From positions 864,001 through 928,000 of the forward strand of contig CM000436.1 of the NCBI GenBank assembly GCA_000165345.1: a DNA stretch of 64,000 nucleotides, written 5' to 3'. This document shows positions 27,001 through 33,000 of the stretch, piece by piece (position 1 is the stretch's first letter; each line of letters starts with the position of its first letter). Position numbers: made by a program.

Positions 27001-30000
27001 ACGAATCTTCACATTCTTAGAAGATTTGAACAAATTTATTAGTTTCTTAAGAAAACTTAACGTCAGTTCATTCTTTGCATTAATCATTCCGGTATAGCTC
27101 AAAATACTAGAAATTGCATACTTGCAAATATCTTGTAATTCAATATTTTTTTGAATAACAGAATTCTCAAGAAGATCCAATAACATATCAAAGATTAAAA
27201 TTAACCGACTTTTGCTTAAGCTTTCATGAATATTTTCTATCAAGAATATCAATAATTTGGAATTATTCTCAGTGGCCCTTTCTATAGAGTAAATACATTT
27301 TGACCAAATTTTATTTGAACCATTTATTTTTACTTCATTCCCTTTCAAGCTCTCTAATATGCTTTCAATATGTTCAATCAACCCAAATAGAGTAATCTCA
27401 CATATTATTTCAGTATTTGATTGTTTGAGGTTATTTTTAGAATTGTTTGATATATTTACACAATTTTTAAATTTAATTTTTTTCAAAAAGTTCGGTGAAA
27501 CAGGCAGAGCAAGCCTAATGCAGTCTAAAATACAGTTTAAAAGTATGCTTTTATAGTTGTTGAATGGCTTTTGTAAATCTTCTTGTTCTATTAATACTTC
27601 TAAAATTGGCAACTCGATATTTACGCTTAGGTTTGATAAACAAATACTTATTTCTCTTAATCTCTCAATACTAAGTTTATTATACCCTCGTGACTTGCTA
27701 GTCATTAAAATATCAGGGATGTTATTGTATTCACTCATTTCTTCATTTTTGTTAGATAAAATTTGTACAATATTTGTGTTGAGAAACTATTTTTACATGC
27801 AGCTATATTAGTCCCCACAAAGCGCCAAGTTACGAAATTAATTGATTTTTCTTATTTTTAACAAGATTAAAGTAATGATGAAGGCGAGTAATAAAAATAG
27901 GTATGTTTATAGAAATAAGTATGCGCAATTAATTTCTGATTCAATTCCTCAGCATTATCGATTTTATTAAGAAAACCTCAATTGAATGTTTAAATGAAGA
28001 TAGAAATTTCCCATTTAAAAATGCATTATTTCAGACTAATCTTGAAATGTTTTGTTCTTCATTAGATGATCACGAATTGCTAGCCAAATTCAATTTCGTT
28101 CAACCTGTGAATTTGACCGGAGTTTCATTCAAACTGTTAGAGAAAGATGTAATAGAAGGGTTTGGACCAAAAAAAATTAAACTTTTCGCCGACGCCACTT
28201 CTTACAGTATAGGAGATGCAGAAATAGAAAACGGAACACAAGAATTTGAGCTGACAAAGAGCCAGCTAATTAGCGGAGAATGCATTGATTTAAAAATGGT
28301 CAAGTTCAAGAATGTTAATTTCATTCAAATTTATATTTCCGAAAACTACGGCAATGAGAACACTAGAATTGGGAAAATAAACATTTATGGTGAAAAAGGT
28401 GATTTTGTAGACATTACCAAATGGAAGCCATACAGAGAAGAGAAGCCTCCCCTAAGTTAGATACAAACCAAATTTAGTAAATAATCAGGTAGCACTGCAT
28501 CCGATTCAATCTAACTAAAAGAGAATTTTTAGAAGGATACGTAAAAATTAGAATACTTGTAAATGCGTGGCATCACTATAAACGTACAATCTATCAGAAT
28601 GGAAGGAGAATACTGACGACTCCTCCCAAGCATGTAAACCTATTTGGCGTGCATCAAGTCTTAGATAAGTCGGCCCAGTCTCTACTTGAATTCTCAAATA
28701 TAGGGCAAGTTAAGCCATATGATTCCGAGAAGAATATGGTGAGCCAGAAGTGGAGATAATGCTTACTCGACCGGTCACCTGAAAATGTCTTTTTCGGGAT
28801 GATCCTTCCAGTACATACAATCGGGCCTGGTATCTTAACTTAAAGCTGATTAACTTGCCACCATCTTGAACGGACGCTAATATTACAAAATTGTTTAATC
28901 GCTCTAAATATTCAATAAGACAGTGCAACCTTGTAGAATACTTGTCAAATTATCTAGACTTAGTCGATGTTATTTTCTGCCTCTGATGCCAATCTTACTG
29001 GACTTGAACTGCTTCCACCCTTGCCACCGCAGCCCATGGAACAACCATATGCACACCCATATGCGCATGCAGAACCTGCGCAACTGCATTTTCCGCAGCG
29101 GCCGCTTGAGCAGTTGCAAGAATTACTCTTAGATTCTGGTCTCTTAGATTCTGGTTTCCTAGATTCTGGTATCTTAGATTCTGGTTTCCTAGATTCTGGC
29201 CTCTTAGATTCTGGTCTCCCAGATCCTACTACTTTCTCGGAACCTAAATCCGGTACCTGGGCTAATATCCTGCGAGATGGACCTGTAGAAATAGGTGATG
29301 AGACAGTAGTGGTAGAAGTCCTTAGGCTAGTCGTGACGTATCTGGTAGTAGTGGTGGTAGTGGTGGTAGTAGTGGTAGGTCTTGTAGTAGTAGTGGTAGG
29401 TCTTGTAGTAGTAGTGGTAGGTCTTGTGGTAGTAGTAGTAGGTCTTGTAGTAGTAGTGGTAGATCTTGTAGTAGTAGTGGTAGGTCTTGTGGTAGTAGTG
29501 GTAGGTCTTGTGGTAGTAGTGGTAGATCTCGTAGTAGTAGTGGTAGATCTTGTGGTAGTGGTGGTAGATCTCGTAGTAGTAGTGGTAGGTCTTGTAGTAG
29601 TAGTGGTAGTAGTGGTAGGTCTTGTAGTAGTGGTAGGTCTTGTAGTAGTGGTGGTAGATCTCGTAGTAGTAGTAGTGGTAAATCTTGTGGTAGTAGTAGT
29701 GGATGGCCTCACGCACTCAGATCCTTTGCACTTGGAGCCATCACAGTTAGTACCTTTACAACCGGGATTTTTACACGATGGTGCAGTGCAGACCTCCTCT
29801 GGTTTTTCGCGTACGCAATGATCTGGCTTTTTACAATTTGGCTTACCTGCACAATGGGATTTATAATAGTTGTTGCTGCATGAGCCTACAGCTCTTCCAT
29901 CATACCCGACGATACGAGCAGGGATAGCCTTCACGCCCCTACATCTAGCAGGGACGCACTTAGCACCTTCAAGATGGCAAAGGGAACTAGAGCACCCATC

Positions 30001-33000
30001 GCAGTGAACGCGACCGCATTTTCCTCCTACACATCTCGCAGGGGTACATTCTCCTCCGGTGCACTTGGCTGTAGTGCAACTGCATCCATTGCAAGATGGG
30101 TGGCATTTAGCAGGAGTACATTCTGAACCCTTGCATTTAAATCCATCGTATTCATTTCCATTGCACTTAGGCCCAACGCAATATCCTCCTTTGCATGAGC
30201 CCTTCTCACATCCAGTTTGACTTTCGCCTACATTGCAAGAACCAGTCGTGCATGTTCCTGGAGTACAAGATCCAGGTTGGCACCTCGGAGCAACACACTC
30301 ATCGCAATAGCACCTATGTGAGCAATCACCAGCAACACACTTTCCTTTCTTACATTCTCCCTTGACACACTCGCCTTTAGAACACTCCTCCTTTGCACAG
30401 TGATGATTTGGTAATATTTCATGCTTAACGCACCTAGCACCTCTGACCCTAGCAGGAGAACATGACCCTCCAGTGCAATGAGCGGGACGCGCAACGCACC
30501 CCTCGAGCCTTGGAACCTCTGTAGTGCATCCAACACACTTGGTTGAAGAACATGAGCCCGAATGGCAAGACCCTCCTACGCATTTTCCAGGCTTGCATTC
30601 ACCGCCTACGCAATTACCACATTTGCACGAGCCCTTTTCGCATTTTGCATCAGAGCAATCAACCATATGAATGGCAATGTGATTGCAATCTTTCTTAACG
30701 CATGTTGCCTTGTAACACATTTTAGGTGATCCGTCCTTGTTGCTGATACATGAAGGACCAGAAAGGCATGATATTGAGGCGCATTGAGCGGGAGTATACG
30801 CCTTACCAGTTGCAACCTTGCTTAATATCTCCTCTGGAGTAGAAACTTGTGGATCTAATATCTCTTGAACATTAGGCATTTCATCATCATCTTCCTCTAT
30901 GTCCGAAGTGGCTTCTGCTAGCTTTCTATTTGGTGTTACCACTGGGGAGGGCTCTCTAGCAGAGGAATCATCAACATCTGACTCAACCTCATTAGTGGAA
31001 AAATCTGCGTTGGGGTCAACAACCATAGAAGGCTTTGAAAGGGTACCCATTGCTTTAGATTCTAAGGTAGTAAAGAATTGGAGAGCAGAATAATTTGTTG
31101 TTCTTTCGCGGTGTTCGAGAACGGAGACTGCAGTCCTCAAAATGTAAAGAGCCCTTTCTGCCTCTTTATCGCCATCCTCTGCTCTCTTTACAACAACGGA
31201 CTTATGAAAATCCAAAAGATCCTTATTCGGCTCAGACATTATTACGCCATAACTGCCATCACTCTCAACTATGAATGGATCTTTAGTTTGATCTCTTGCC
31301 CATCTAGGAAGTAAAGGAGAATACTTATCAATGTGATATCCTAATGCAAGACTGCTTGCATTAATCTCGTCAATGTTTTGAGATTGAGACTCCACTTTGG
31401 AAAATATTTCGTCCGTGACCTCGTTAGCTGTAGATAACTCTTCGAATAAATCTTCAAAAACATCCAATTCTTGTTTGATATCAGAAACGAGCTTCTCGCG
31501 AGTTCTTTGAGCATGCTGTCGTTGATATAACATTGGAATTTTGTCAATTCTACCATGATTTCTCTCGATATAGTCCAGCTGCGACTCAATCAGTGAGCGC
31601 TGCTCCTTCAAGTGGTTTTTCAAATCATCAAGATTCCTTGGTGTCTTTGGTGATTTACCTGGAATGGGACTTGGAGAGGCGTGAGCAATCAACATAAACG
31701 TAGTAGAAACAAGAATGTCATCTTCCTTGGCAATAACAAATGCACGGGTAGATATACTCTCATTCACCTCATCATCTAGAGAAAGATCAGACACAGATGC
31801 GCTTAGGTTGGACAATTTTTCCCTCTGTGTCTTACAAAGAGACTTCATATAAAGCAAGACTTGAGAATAAACCTTCTTTGCCTCTGTATCAGGTAAAGAT
31901 GTTATAGTCGGCTCAGCATCATGCAATAATGTTTTCTCAATATTATCAATTAGTTTAATATCCTCCTCACAAAAACCGACAATTCCTCTTTTAGTTGGAG
32001 AAATGAGAGGATAATAGAAAAGAGCGTCCTTAGTAAATGCTTGAGCTCCAGATGTTTGAATAGAAAAGGATCCTGGAGCATCCTCTTTGAGAACAAGATG
32101 AATAACTGAAGAAGGATCGCGTGTTGAATCTTCTGTACCGAAAATTTTATTCTTCAATTCCAAATCAGATGGTTTCAAATTCGGGGTAAGATATACGCCG
32201 GGAGCGTCAGGCTCAATACTAGGAGCTGGTTGAATTTTAGATAGTCTGACTTGTCTAGGTGAAACATAAGTGTTTGCACATACGCCAACCAAGATGGCCA
32301 GGAGTGCAAGAATAATCAAAGTTTTCTTGAACATGTTGCAGAAAACTTTCCGGTAATTGTCTTAAAATATCCAATTACAACTTTTACAGTTGAGTTAACC
32401 TTTATAAAAATATAAAAATAAATTAACTCGTCCTTAAATATTAAGTGAAGAAAATAGTTCGTCTGTGATATGCAGTGTTAATAAATATTCTATCCCTTCT
32501 TTTTTTTTATTAATAGATATATACGTATCCTCTAATTAGAACTATTAGTATCGTGCTACCCGAACTTTTACCCTTTGATACATAGGTATAAGTCTACCTT
32601 CATTTTGTTAATTGTATAATTATTTGTAAATAGTTATATTAATATTATGTTTTTTATACGTATAATTAACTAAGATCGGTACTCTACCACTAACTTATAT
32701 TATTATATTTTATACTCAGTTTACGCTGTTCTGTCTATAATTGTATTTAGATAGACACGCCTACCCAACCATTAATTGTGCCGCTAGTATCGAAAAATAA
32801 TTTATGCAAACGATTATTAATATGAAAAATTGCAAAGGCCCGCCAGCTTTGCAATTAAACTAAATTGTGTATTTTGACCACTAGCATTGTATCATAATTG
32901 TTCGATGACTGCTGTATAATTATATTACGATTAGACGCTATAATTTTAATTCTGGCCCTTGTAAATTGTCGAATTATGAAAAGCAGGTCTCTCCCAACTT

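What the first reader, a model, noticed from the sequence alone, without database searches (positions are those of the whole stretch)
28960..32334. Giant secreted protein combining a novel Cys-rich module array with mucin-type Thr repeats and PESKR repeats
The architecture is signal peptide, acidic globular region, about 330 aa of closely spaced CxxGxC / KCVGGSC / CKxGxC units, about 17 TTTTTR(P/S) heptads (dense O-glycosylation substrate), PESKR/PESRK pentads, and a Gly/Cys-rich end. It has no predicted TM helix or GPI-like hydrophobic tail. This looks like a wall, surface or secreted glycoprotein, possibly oocyst-wall or mucin-like adhesin. The Cys spacing does not match the oocyst-wall (COWP) or TSP1 repeats that I know. 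Repeat copy number is likely polymorphic and a candidate typing locus like gp60.
Basis: partly seen in the sequence, partly recalled or inferred. Interest (0 to 1): 0.65.

Follow-up and report, generated by a model that had tools for sequence, protein, structure and literature searches.

The report
Abundant secreted Cryptosporidium mucin, cgd8_3520
This is the Cryptosporidium parvum gene cgd8_3520: a publicly annotated but unstudied secreted, mucin-like glycoprotein with an unclassified cysteine-repeat module, whose mRNA is among the parasite's most abundant and peaks in the invasive stages, so it is probably not an oocyst-wall protein.

Summary
Window 28960-32334 (-) is one 1124-aa ORF: signal peptide, acidic N-terminal region, a 357-aa cysteine array, about 16-17 Thr-rich heptads, 5-6 PES[KR]x pentads and a Cys/Gly tail. 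There is no TM helix or GPI-like tail.

Published qPCR primers identify it as C. parvum cgd8_3520, "Uncharacterized secreted protein". Orthologues are already annotated [quoted passage not shown], so the architecture is not a new discovery.

The cysteine array is far from chance: 37 of 62 adjacent Cys pairs are C-x4-C, against 5.1 +/- 2.2 in shuffles. It matches no Pfam family or PDB sequence and has relatives only within Cryptosporidium. It is the most constrained part of the protein (dN/dS about 0.07-0.085).

Published data put the transcript at about 8% of sporozoite mRNA reads and fourth in infected ileum. Expression falls when sexual stages dominate. That argues against an oocyst-wall role and for a secretory glycoprotein of the invasive stages (zoites).

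The Thr-tract length varies among C. hominis sequences (129, 136 and 191 aa).

New lead: two conserved R-x-L-A-[EQ] motifs in unconserved linkers match validated plasmepsin V/ASP5 cleavage sites. This suggests, without proof, that the protein is cut into three fragments.

The parts
28960..32334 (-). Complete coding sequence of cgd8_3520 (1124 aa plus stop), single exon
   Evidence: ORF listing. The Mauzy 2012 reverse qPCR primer for cgd8_3520 matches exactly at 31731-31752. Primers for cgd8_3510 and cgd8_3530 match exactly in the two flanking ORFs. Overall dN/dS is 0.17-0.18 against C. hominis and C. meleagridis.
32272..32334 (-). Signal peptide, residues 1-21 (MFKKTLIILALLAILVGVCAN)
   Evidence: It is the only hydrophobic segment in the protein and is present in all orthologues. 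The exact cleavage position is inferred, not tested.
32002..32271 (-). Fast-evolving N-terminal segment, residues 22-111
   Evidence: dN/dS is 0.88 against C. hominis and 0.57 against C. meleagridis. AlphaFold confidence is low here, pLDDT 24-38.
31045..32001 (-). Conserved helical-bundle domain, residues about 112-430
30820..31044 (-). Acidic, poorly conserved linker, residues 431-505
   Evidence: Alignment; pLDDT below 30.
30913..30927 (-). Motif 1: RKLAE (residues 470-474), a candidate PEXEL/TEXEL-type cleavage site
   Evidence: Translation checked. The sequence is R[KR]LAE in all five species, with 4 of 5 columns invariant, while the flanks have 2/11 and 1/19 invariant columns. C. bovis and C. 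ryanae have RRLAE, identical to the validated TgGRA16 ASP5 site (PMC4764566).
29713..30783 (-). Cysteine pentad/decad array, residues 518-874 (63 Cys)
   Evidence: Periodicity statistics. Translation checked. No Pfam or PDB sequence match. dN/dS 0.07-0.085. No DNA-level tandem repeat here.
29335..29700 (-). Thr-rich mucin tract, residues 879-1000 (16-17 TTTTTR[PS] units)
   Evidence: Tandem Repeats Finder reports 16.7 copies of a 21-nt unit at 29343-29702. Unit list. Tract length varies among C. hominis sequences.
29257..29271 (-). Motif 2: RILAQ (residues 1022-1026), a second candidate PEXEL/TEXEL-type cleavage site
   Evidence: Translation checked. It reads RILAQ, RMLAQ, RSLAQ or RSLAE in the four species that have this region. 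It has the same form as the PfKAHRP PEXEL, RTLAQ (PMC4764566).
29126..29224 (-). PES[KR]x pentad repeats, residues about 1041-1069
   Evidence: Tandem Repeats Finder reports 6.2 copies of a 15-nt unit. Regex count. The count is 5 versus 6 in two C. meleagridis isolates.
29017..29118 (-). C-terminal Cys/Gly cluster, residues 1073-1106 (9 Cys)
   Evidence: Translation. It evolves fast: dN/dS is 0.75 and 0.46 for residues 1070-1124.
28963..29004 (-). Conserved hydrophilic C-terminal tail, residues 1111-1124 (PVRLASEAENNID)
   Evidence: P1112, A1116, A1119 and E1120 are invariant in all five species, including C. serpentis, which lacks the mucin and Cys/Gly parts.

Best explanation
The ORF is C. 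parvum cgd8_3520. It is a single-copy gene restricted to the genus Cryptosporidium, and it encodes a soluble secretory mucin-like glycoprotein made in very large amounts by the invasive stages (sporozoites and merozoites).

Proposed mechanism, with the status of each step:
1. Inferred from sequence: the signal peptide takes the protein into the ER.
2. Inferred: the Cys pentad/decad array is oxidised into a disulfide-rich, probably elongated module.
3. Inferred by analogy with gp40/15 and gp900: the parasite's O-GalNAc machinery densely modifies the Thr heptads into a stiff mucin stalk.
4. Inferred from the expression profile: the protein is stored in a zoite secretory organelle and released at or just after invasion.
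5. Inferred: it lacks any membrane anchor, so it acts as a secreted coat or matrix component on the zoite or at the parasite-host interface, held there through its conserved helical N-terminal domain or its conserved C-terminal tail. Its presence in infected cells at 3 h, and weak co-enrichment with the interface protein DG8, are shown.
6. Hypothesis: two conserved R-x-L-A-[EQ] motifs are cut by a plasmepsin V/ASP5-type aspartyl protease. This would give three fragments: a 51-kDa acidic helical head, a basic Cys-array-plus-mucin core, and a 10-kDa tail.
For: Identity:
- The published cgd8_3520 reverse primer matches exactly at 31731-31752, and the cgd8_3510 and cgd8_3530 primers match exactly in the flanking ORFs.
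- The gene order from cgd8_3430 (M1 aminopeptidase) onward matches the window.

Real, constrained gene:
- dN/dS is 0.17-0.18 overall and 0.07-0.085 in the Cys array.
- Syntenic orthologues exist in C. hominis, C. meleagridis and C. serpentis.

Abundance and stage:
- log2 CPM is 16.25-16.39 in sporozoites (about 85,000 CPM) and 12.5-13.0 at 24 h and 48 h (Tandel 2019 Supplementary File 5).
- It is the 4th most abundant parasite transcript in mouse ileum, listed next to gp40, gp900 and CP2 (PMC8852703).
- The qPCR course is high at 2 h, dips at 6 h, is high at 12-24 h and falls by 72 h, and runs about 1000 times above the neighbouring genes (PMC3305300).

Protein:
- 22 and 16 unique peptides were found in lysates of infected cells at 3 h post-infection.
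- Enrichment was log2FC 3.99 (p 0.07) on GFP-DG8-C bait and 3.15 (p 0.03) in the second pull-down sheet (PMC13241007 S1 Table).

Secretory, unanchored.

Mucin analogy: alpha-GalNAc O-glycans on gp40 and gp900 are targets of antibodies and lectins that block infection (PMC9973360).

Cleavage hypothesis:
- R-x-L-A-[EQ] occurs twice against 0.016 expected, with P(>=2) = 1.5e-4.
- Both copies are conserved islands in unconserved linkers.
- RRLAE is the validated ASP5 site of GRA16, and RTLAQ the plasmepsin V site of KAHRP. ASP5 also matures substrates away from the N-terminus (PMC4764566).
- C. parvum encodes three plasmepsin V/ASP5-like proteases (PMC8687662).
Against: - No localisation data for this protein were retrievable. 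The hyperLOPIT paper was not held, so the organelle and the final destination are unknown.
- The DG8 pull-down enrichment may be background from an extremely abundant protein. EF-1alpha shows log2FC 3.0 in the same table, and the authors did not list cgd8_3520 among the significant partners.
- O-glycosylation of this particular protein has not been shown.
- AlphaFold gives no confident model of the Cys array (pLDDT about 22), so 'disulfide-rich rod' is conjecture.
- C. serpentis keeps only 20 of the 63 array cysteines, so a full disulfide ladder is not essential to the scaffold.
- The only processing or export motifs shown so far in Cryptosporidium (MEDLE2, MVP1) are Ser followed by two hydrophobic residues, not RxLxE (PMC7618952).
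- ASP5 strongly prefers Arg at P2. The window has RKL at motif 1 and RIL at motif 2.
- High mRNA in sporozoites does not exclude translation or deposition during sporogony inside the oocyst.
Confidence: 0.6

Rival explanations
1. Oocyst-wall or sporozoite-tether glycoprotein. In this reading the protein is deposited in the oocyst, as a disulfide-cross-linked wall component or as one of the mucin-like tethers that hold sporozoites to the inner wall.
For: - It is Cys-rich, secreted and carries a mucin tract, which resembles the class of COWPs and 'possible oocyst wall proteins'. [quoted passage not shown]
- COWP4 (cgd8_3350) lies on the same chromosome.
- The very high mRNA level in sporozoites would also fit synthesis inside the sporulating oocyst.
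Against: - Expression falls rather than rises at 48-72 h, when female gamonts make wall proteins.
- The gene is absent from the asexual-versus-female differential clusters of Tandel 2019.
- The protein is present in infected cells at 3 h post-infection.
- Cys spacing is 5, whereas COWPs are described with spacing of about 10-12 (bioRxiv 10.64898/2026.05.05.722909).
- A profile that included the Cys array retrieved no COWP among 1.84 billion proteins.
Confidence: 0.12
2. Micronemal adhesin of the gp900 or gp40/15 type. In this reading the protein is discharged onto the zoite surface, binds host glycans or receptors during attachment and gliding, and is then shed in trails.
For: - Its layout, Cys-rich region plus poly-Thr mucin, resembles that of gp900.
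- It is co-listed with gp40 and gp900 among the top in vivo transcripts.
- It has a zoite-type expression profile.
- The exposed N-terminal segment evolves fast, which fits immune pressure (dN/dS 0.57-0.88).
Against: - There is no TM domain, GPI signal or recognised adhesive domain.
- There is no sequence similarity to gp900 outside the low-complexity Thr tract.
- The only interaction data link it to dense-granule and small-granule proteins, not to microneme proteins.
- This rival overlaps the best explanation. It differs only in the organelle and in assigning a direct adhesive role.
Confidence: 0.2
3. The repeat architecture is partly an assembly or annotation artefact: collapsed or expanded Thr and PES repeats, or a wrongly merged gene model.
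For: - Repeat tracts of 21-nt and 15-nt units are prone to mis-assembly.
- Deposited C. hominis sequences differ in tract length, at 129, 136 and 191 aa.
Against: - The reading frame is intact through both tracts.
- All orthologues, from independent assemblies, share the same domain order and a conserved C-terminal tail downstream of the repeats.
- Only the copy number, not the architecture, could be affected.
- No reads were available to test the exact copy number.
Confidence: 0.05

Closest known systems
Cryptosporidium GP900 (cgd7_4020) and gp40/15 (cgd6_1080) mucin-like zoite glycoproteins
   Same: They are secreted through the zoite secretory pathway and carry poly-Thr or Ser/Thr tracts of the kind that bear alpha-GalNAc O-glycans. 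They are among the most abundant parasite transcripts in vivo. GP900 also alternates Cys-rich and poly-Thr domains (my own knowledge of the GP900 literature).
   Different: - There is no detectable sequence homology outside the low-complexity tracts.
- cgd8_3520 has no TM domain, unlike GP900, and no GPI-anchored partner segment, unlike gp15.
- Its Cys region is a strict C-x4-C pentad array, which is not how GP900's Cys-rich domains are described.
Cryptosporidium oocyst wall proteins (COWP1-9; for example COWP4, cgd8_3350)
   Same: They have a signal peptide and tandem arrays of periodically spaced cysteines thought to form disulfide-stabilised structural frameworks.
   Different: - COWP Cys spacing is about 10-12 residues, with predicted growth-factor-receptor-type Cys-rich domains. 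Here the spacing is 5 and no domain is recognised.
- The expression stage is different.
- The profile search finds no similarity.
Toxoplasma ASP5 (TEXEL) and Plasmodium plasmepsin V (PEXEL) substrates, for example GRA16 (RRLAE) and KAHRP (RTLAQ)
   Same: The pentameric motif R-x-L-x-[EQD] sits in a secretory protein. Motif 1 in C. bovis and C. ryanae is letter-for-letter the GRA16 TEXEL, and motif 2 has the KAHRP form. ASP5 substrates are dense-granule proteins at the host-parasite interface and can be cut far from the N-terminus.
   Different: - Cleavage has not been shown here.
- P2 is Lys or Ile in C. parvum, whereas ASP5 prefers Arg.
- The motifs lie about 450 and about 1000 residues from the signal peptide.
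- No RxLxE-type processing has yet been described in Cryptosporidium.
Toxoplasma cyst-wall mucin CST1
   Same: It is a secreted apicomplexan glycoprotein in which an O-GalNAc-modified Thr-rich mucin domain gives mechanical rigidity to an extracellular parasite structure (abstracts of PMC3873430 and PMC5225312).
   Different: CST1 has SRS (SAG1-related sequence) domains and is a protein of the bradyzoite cyst wall. There is no homology and the life-cycle stage is different. The resemblance is a functional analogy only.
High-cysteine pentapeptide-repeat structural proteins (mammalian keratin-associated proteins, silkmoth high-Cys chorion proteins)
   Same: They have Cys recurring with a 5-residue period in Gly/Ser/Pro-rich repeats, and they serve as disulfide cross-linkers of extracellular or cornified matrices (my own knowledge, not tested here).
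   Different: The consensus is different (for example C-C-x-P-x) and the phylogenetic context is unrelated. None was retrieved by the profile search at E<=1e-3. This is an analogy recalled from memory, not a tested relationship.

Membership tests
Cryptosporidium secreted mucin-like glycoproteins (functional class) | N-terminal signal peptide | tested here: met
   A hydrophobic N-terminal segment at residues 1-21 is the only hydrophobic stretch and is conserved in the orthologues.
Cryptosporidium secreted mucin-like glycoproteins (functional class) | Extended Ser/Thr-rich tract suitable for dense O-GalNAc glycosylation | tested here: met
   A 122-aa tract that is about 80% Thr, in 16-17 units.
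Cryptosporidium secreted mucin-like glycoproteins (functional class) | Actual O-glycosylation (lectin or anti-Tn antibody reactivity, or glycopeptides) | not testable with these tools
   This needs lectin blots or glycoproteomics. No such data on cgd8_3520 were found (one search shows one main-text mention of the gene in the whole library).
COWP family (oocyst wall proteins) | Type I/II Cys repeats with about 10-12-residue spacing, and sequence similarity to COWP1-9 | tested here: not met
   Cys spacing is 5. A profile search that included the Cys array found only orthologues among 1.84 billion proteins.
COWP family (oocyst wall proteins) | Expression in female gamonts or late culture | tested here: not met
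   Published data show the highest level in sporozoites and at 2-24 h, a decline by 72 h, and no membership of the female-versus-asexual differential clusters.
EGF, TSP1 and furin-like/GFR Cys-rich domains | A match to the Pfam models | tested here: not met
   No Pfam family matches the Cys array even at E<=10 or the full protein at E<=1. No PDB sequence matches at E<=10.
PEXEL/TEXEL substrates of plasmepsin V/ASP5-type proteases | An R-x-L-x-[EQD] motif in a protein that enters the secretory pathway | tested here: met
   RKLAE at 470-474 and RILAQ at 1022-1026. Both are conserved across species and enriched over chance, P = 1.5e-4.
PEXEL/TEXEL substrates of plasmepsin V/ASP5-type proteases | Proteolytic cleavage after the Leu by the aspartyl protease | not testable with these tools
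   This needs western blots of tagged protein, N-terminomics or in vitro peptide cleavage.
PEXEL/TEXEL substrates of plasmepsin V/ASP5-type proteases | Arg at P2 (the strict RRL preference of TgASP5) | tested here: inconclusive
   Motif 1 is RRL in C. bovis and C. ryanae but RKL in C. parvum, C. meleagridis and C. serpentis. Motif 2 is RIL, RML or RSL. Plasmepsin V tolerates any residue at P2. The specificity of the Cryptosporidium enzymes is unknown.
GPI-anchored or transmembrane surface antigens | A C-terminal hydrophobic GPI signal or an internal TM helix | tested here: not met
   The last 19 residues have mean hydropathy -0.65. The best internal 19-residue window scores 1.26.

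The most novel reading that the evidence does not exclude
cgd8_3520 would be the first canonical RxLxE/Q (PEXEL/TEXEL-type) substrate recognised in Cryptosporidium. In this reading a plasmepsin V/ASP5-like protease cuts it at RKL|AE and RIL|AQ. The released Cys-array-plus-mucin core, an unclassified 5/10-residue Cys/Gly solenoid-like module, then becomes a major disulfide-cross-linked glycoprotein building block of the zoite coat or of the layered parasite-host interface. 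That would explain why it accounts for about 8% of sporozoite mRNA.
Probability: 0.15. Interest if true: 0.7.

Novelty: new member of a known kind. Interest (0 to 1): 0.42.

Why it matters
- Cryptosporidium is a leading cause of childhood diarrhoeal death. There is no vaccine and the available drugs work poorly, and abundant secreted mucin-like glycoproteins such as gp40/15 and gp900 are its main candidate protective antigens.
- cgd8_3520 is expressed at a comparable or higher level than those antigens: fourth in vivo, and about 8% of sporozoite mRNA reads.
- It is restricted to the genus and has a fast-evolving N-terminal segment and a copy-number-variable repeat.
- It has only one main-text mention in the searchable literature. 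It is therefore an obvious but neglected candidate antigen, interface component or typing marker.
- If the two conserved RxLA[EQ] motifs are real cleavage sites, the protein would give a direct handle on the still undescribed plasmepsin V/ASP5-type maturation pathway in Cryptosporidium, which is a potential drug target.
- The Cys pentad/decad array is an unclassified, strongly constrained module whose fold current predictors cannot resolve.

Tried and rejected
1. AGP1, AGP2 and POWP3 as the identity: these are different genes (cgd4_32, cgd7_4330, cgd3_1540).
2. COWP4 (cgd8_3350) as the identity: it is 887 aa with 44 Cys and lies outside the window.
3. AlphaFold2 on residues 1-880: mean pLDDT 38, with the Cys array at about 22, so unusable and not fold-searched.
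5. The weak Pfam hit to a dynein coiled-coil (E 0.012-0.06, below the curated cut-off) was dismissed as helix bias.
6. P0012, the only non-orthologue hit of the exhaustive profile search (E 1.4e-4), is an unrelated repetitive protein and was dismissed.
7. Higher-order duplication within the Cys array: the apparent similarity of the two halves (z 8.9) disappears when the Cys period is preserved in the control (z 1.5).
8. The antisense ORF 28967-29821 (+), 284 aa, is 35% Val and is just the complement of the Thr codons, not a gene.
9. RxLx[EQD] motifs at residues 233 and 246 are not conserved beyond C. meleagridis and lie inside helices, so they were not considered cleavage sites.
10. Supplement searches for cgd8_3520 found nothing in the CP2 paper or the CRISPR-screen paper. 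The hyperLOPIT paper and Walzer 2024 are not held. The 2026 sporozoite proteome has no held supplements.
11. Searches under the C. hominis and C. meleagridis accessions found nothing.
12. The forward qPCR primer failed to match only because the published primer has one extra C relative to the window.

Full report
**1. What is in the sequence**

Window 28960-32334 on the minus strand is one uninterrupted ORF of 1124 aa. The surrounding DNA is about 30% G+C. The gene itself is 41-43%, which reflects its Thr (ACN), Cys (TGC/TGT) and Gly codons.

- **Signal peptide**, residues 1-21. It is the only hydrophobic segment, and the C-terminus is hydrophilic.
- **Acidic N-terminal region**, residues 22-505, pI 4.7.
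- **Cysteine array**, residues 518-874, with 63 Cys in 357 aa.
- **Thr tract**, residues 877-1000, with 16-17 units of T(4-11)-R-[PS]. Tandem Repeats Finder reports 16.7 copies of a 21-nt unit.
- **PES[KR]x pentads**: five perfect and one partial, as 6.2 copies of a 15-nt unit.
- **Cys/Gly cluster and a short hydrophilic tail**.

The cysteine periodicity is far beyond chance. 37 of 62 adjacent Cys pairs are exactly 5 apart, against 5.1 +/- 2.2 (maximum 15) in 20,000 shuffles. Autocorrelation peaks at every multiple of 5. The pentad consensus is C-[VKT]-[GKP]-G-[SKE], and 'C-V-G-G-x' pentads often alternate with 'C-x-P-[GA]-[KR]' pentads, which gives a decad unit.

No DNA tandem repeat underlies the array, so selection maintains it at the protein level. 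Once the Cys period is preserved in the control, there is no higher-order duplication.

**2. Identity**

The closest database proteins are from Cryptosporidium:
- C. hominis, 94-95% identical
- C. meleagridis, 86-88%
- C. bovis and C. ryanae, 51-55%. These two are already named 'secreted protein with cysteine rich repeats and a mucin like threonine rich repeat'.

The window also carries several identifiable neighbours:
- an M1 aminopeptidase, cgd8_3430
- methionyl-tRNA synthetase, cgd8_3460
- a PITH-domain gene, cgd8_3510, annotated 'thioredoxin-like protein, fragment'

The qPCR primer table of Mauzy et al. 2012 settles the identity:
- The reverse primer for cgd8_3520 matches exactly at 31731-31752.
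- The cgd8_3510 and cgd8_3530 primers match exactly in the two flanking ORFs.
- The forward primer differs from the window by one extra C.

The gene is therefore C. parvum cgd8_3520, 'Uncharacterized secreted protein', on chromosome 8.

**3. Distribution and constraint**

Three searches found relatives only in Cryptosporidium: two word-seeded searches of 5.8 billion proteins, one of them with a repeat-trimmed profile, and one exhaustive profile search of 1.84 billion representatives. No paralogue was retrieved.

The most distant orthologue is C. serpentis KAL7066606.1, from a gastric species. It is syntenic, sitting next to the PITH gene and the same large gene, so the gene dates to the root of the genus.

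The C. serpentis protein differs in three ways:
- It keeps only 20 of the 63 array cysteines, and 19 of the lost ones are replaced by Ser.
- It retains 32 of 49 glycines and the 5/10-residue period.
- It has a Ser/Lys-rich segment in place of the Thr tract and the Cys/Gly cluster.

The scaffold is thus a Gly-rich decad repeat with a small residue at every fifth position. The full cysteine ladder is a later elaboration of the intestinal lineages: 63/63 Cys are kept in C. meleagridis and 47/63 in C. bovis and C. ryanae.

dN/dS against C. hominis and C. meleagridis:

| Region | vs C. hominis | vs C. meleagridis |
|---|---|---|
| Whole gene | 0.18 | 0.17 |
| Cys array (506-876) | 0.07 | 0.085 |
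| Helical domain (112-430) | 0.14 | 0.13 |
| N-terminal segment (22-111) | 0.88 | 0.57 |
| C-terminal region (1070-1124) | 0.75 | 0.46 |

**4. Domain searches**

- Pfam gives nothing for the Cys array or the C-terminal part even at E<=10. The N-terminal part gets only a sub-threshold coiled-coil hit.
- PDB sequence searches give nothing meaningful.
- AlphaFold2 on residues 1-880 fails, with mean pLDDT 38 and about 22 in the Cys array.
- A focused run on residues 100-440 with five species gives a confident model (pLDDT 80.4, pTM 0.71) of long helices and one beta-hairpin.

The Cys module is unclassified.

**5. What published data say**

cgd8_3520 appears in the main text of only one paper in the searchable library. 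There it is the fourth most abundant C. parvum transcript in infected mouse ileum, listed beside gp40, gp900 and CP2 (PMC8852703).

Supplementary tables add four points:
- **Bulk RNA-seq (Tandel 2019).** log2 CPM is 16.25-16.39 in excysted sporozoites, which is about 85,000 CPM or roughly 8% of parasite mRNA reads. It is 12.5-13.0 at 24 h and 48 h.
- **Sorted stages (Tandel 2019).** The gene is in none of the clusters of genes that differ between sorted asexual and female stages.
- **qPCR time course (Mauzy 2012).** Levels run about 1000 times above the neighbouring genes. They are high at 2 h, dip at 6 h, are high again at 12-24 h, and fall about 20-50-fold by 72 h. This is the pattern expected of a gene transcribed while zoites are being formed, not of a wall protein made by the female gamont.
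- **Pull-downs (Puthenpurackal et al. 2026).** The protein was identified with 22 and 16 unique peptides in lysates of HCT-8 cells at 3 h post-infection. It was enriched on a DG8 bait (log2FC 3.99, p 0.07) and in the second pull-down sheet (log2FC 3.15, p 0.03). The authors did not count it among the significant partners. EF-1alpha shows a similar fold change, so the enrichment may only reflect abundance.

**6. A new lead: two conserved PEXEL/TEXEL-type motifs**

The multi-species alignment shows two islands of conservation inside linkers that are otherwise barely conserved:
- **Motif 1**, residues 470-474, between the helical head and the Cys array. It reads RKLAE in C. parvum, C. meleagridis and C. 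serpentis, and RRLAE in C. bovis and C. ryanae. Four of its five columns are invariant in five species, while the flanks have 2/11 and 1/19 invariant columns.
- **Motif 2**, residues 1022-1026, between the mucin tract and the PES repeats. It reads RILAQ, RMLAQ, RSLAQ or RSLAE.

R-x-L-A-[EQ] occurs twice against 0.016 expected, with P(>=2) = 1.5e-4.

The match to known cleavage sites is close:
- RRLAE is exactly the site in Toxoplasma GRA16 that the Golgi protease ASP5 cuts after the Leu.
- RTLAQ is the plasmepsin V site of P. falciparum KAHRP.
- ASP5 also matures substrates at sites far from the N-terminus, and many of its substrates are dense-granule proteins at the host-parasite interface (PMC4764566, PMC6212819).

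The pathway is still called undescribed in Cryptosporidium, and the two motifs shown there so far are of a different type (PMC7618952).

Cleavage at both sites would give three fragments:
- a 50.6-kDa acidic helical head
- a basic Cys-array-plus-mucin core, 57.8 kDa before glycans
- a 10.2-kDa tail

This is a hypothesis. No cleavage data were accessible.

**7. Interpretation**

The best-supported reading is that cgd8_3520 is a hyper-abundant, soluble, mucin-like secretory glycoprotein of the invasive stages. It would be released at or soon after invasion to act as a coat or matrix component on the zoite or at the parasite-host interface.

What is shown:
- gene identity
- architecture
- selective constraint
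- expression level and timing
- presence of the protein in infected cells at 3 h post-infection

What is inferred:
- O-glycosylation
- disulfide bonding
- the organelle of origin and the final destination
- proteolytic maturation

The oocyst-wall idea is disfavoured by the expression data and by the lack of similarity to COWPs, but it is not strictly excluded, because no localisation has been seen.

The typing-locus idea has some support. C. hominis sequences that differ at 0-1 positions over the first 876 residues have Thr tracts of 129, 136 and 191 aa, and two C. meleagridis isolates differ by one PES unit. Assembly artefacts cannot be excluded without reads.

**8. Novelty and score**

The gene and its architecture are already in public annotation, and it belongs to a well-known class, the Cryptosporidium mucin-like secreted glycoproteins. 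I therefore rate it a new, uncharacterised member of a known kind.

What is of real interest:
- the mismatch between its extreme abundance and the absence of any study
- the unclassified, strongly constrained Cys pentad/decad module
- the two conserved RxLA[EQ] motifs

Interest is moderate, 0.42.

Noticed in passing
window 33955-35523 (-), 36268-37980 (-), 41790-43301 (-), 47756-49387 (-), weakly 44919-46352 (+): Directly upstream of the target lies a cluster of paralogous secreted-protein genes (blastp 24-39% identity, E 1e-12 to 1e-87). Four of them carry a literal 'WYLE' motif. [quoted passage not shown] The target is not a paralogue of them.
   Followed up: partly
window 28047-28460 (+) and the ~300 bases upstream: The PITH-domain gene cgd8_3510 is a 137-aa ORF that covers only Pfam PITH positions 47-173 of 176, and the old annotation calls it a 'fragment'. 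One C. hominis assembly (GCA_001593475.1; a second C. hominis assembly keeps the 137-aa model) and C. meleagridis annotate the orthologue as 177 aa over a 586-nt span, and C. serpentis as 172 aa. This implies a short 5' exon and an intron of about 50 nt that the plain ORF misses.
   Followed up: partly
window 32335-33954: The intergenic region upstream of the highly expressed target is about 1.6 kb with no ORF of 80 aa or more. My recollection, not checked here, is that this is long for the compact C. parvum genome. It may hold an extended promoter, a 5' UTR or an unannotated non-coding transcript.
   Followed up: no
window 28967-29821 (+): A 284-aa ORF lies antisense to the Thr and PES repeats. 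It is 35% Val and rich in Leu and Gly, because it is the complement of the ACN Thr codons. It is a repeat artefact, not a gene.
   Followed up: yes
L001 8001-10994 (C. serpentis JBHPOL010000068.1): The orthologue in the gastric species C. serpentis replaces 19 of the 63 array cysteines with Ser, keeps Cys mainly at a 10-residue period, and has a Ser/Lys-rich segment in place of the Thr mucin tract. It still retains the RKLAE motif and the C-terminal tail. This gives a natural 'cysteine-poor' variant of the module for structural comparison.
   Followed up: partly
window 28963-29004 (-), residues 1111-1124: The hydrophilic C-terminal tail, P-V-x-[LA]-A-[SA]-x-A-E-x-x-[IV]-[DE], is conserved across all five species even though everything between it and the Cys array is replaced in C. 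serpentis. It may be a sorting or partner-binding signal. No known motif was matched.
   Followed up: no
window 10009-12819 (+), 17772-19460 (+), 56408-60805 (+): The window also holds housekeeping and drug-target-type genes: the M1 aminopeptidase N (cgd8_3430), methionyl-tRNA synthetase (cgd8_3460), and a 1465-aa protein with a sterol-sensing/Patched-like domain.
   Followed up: no
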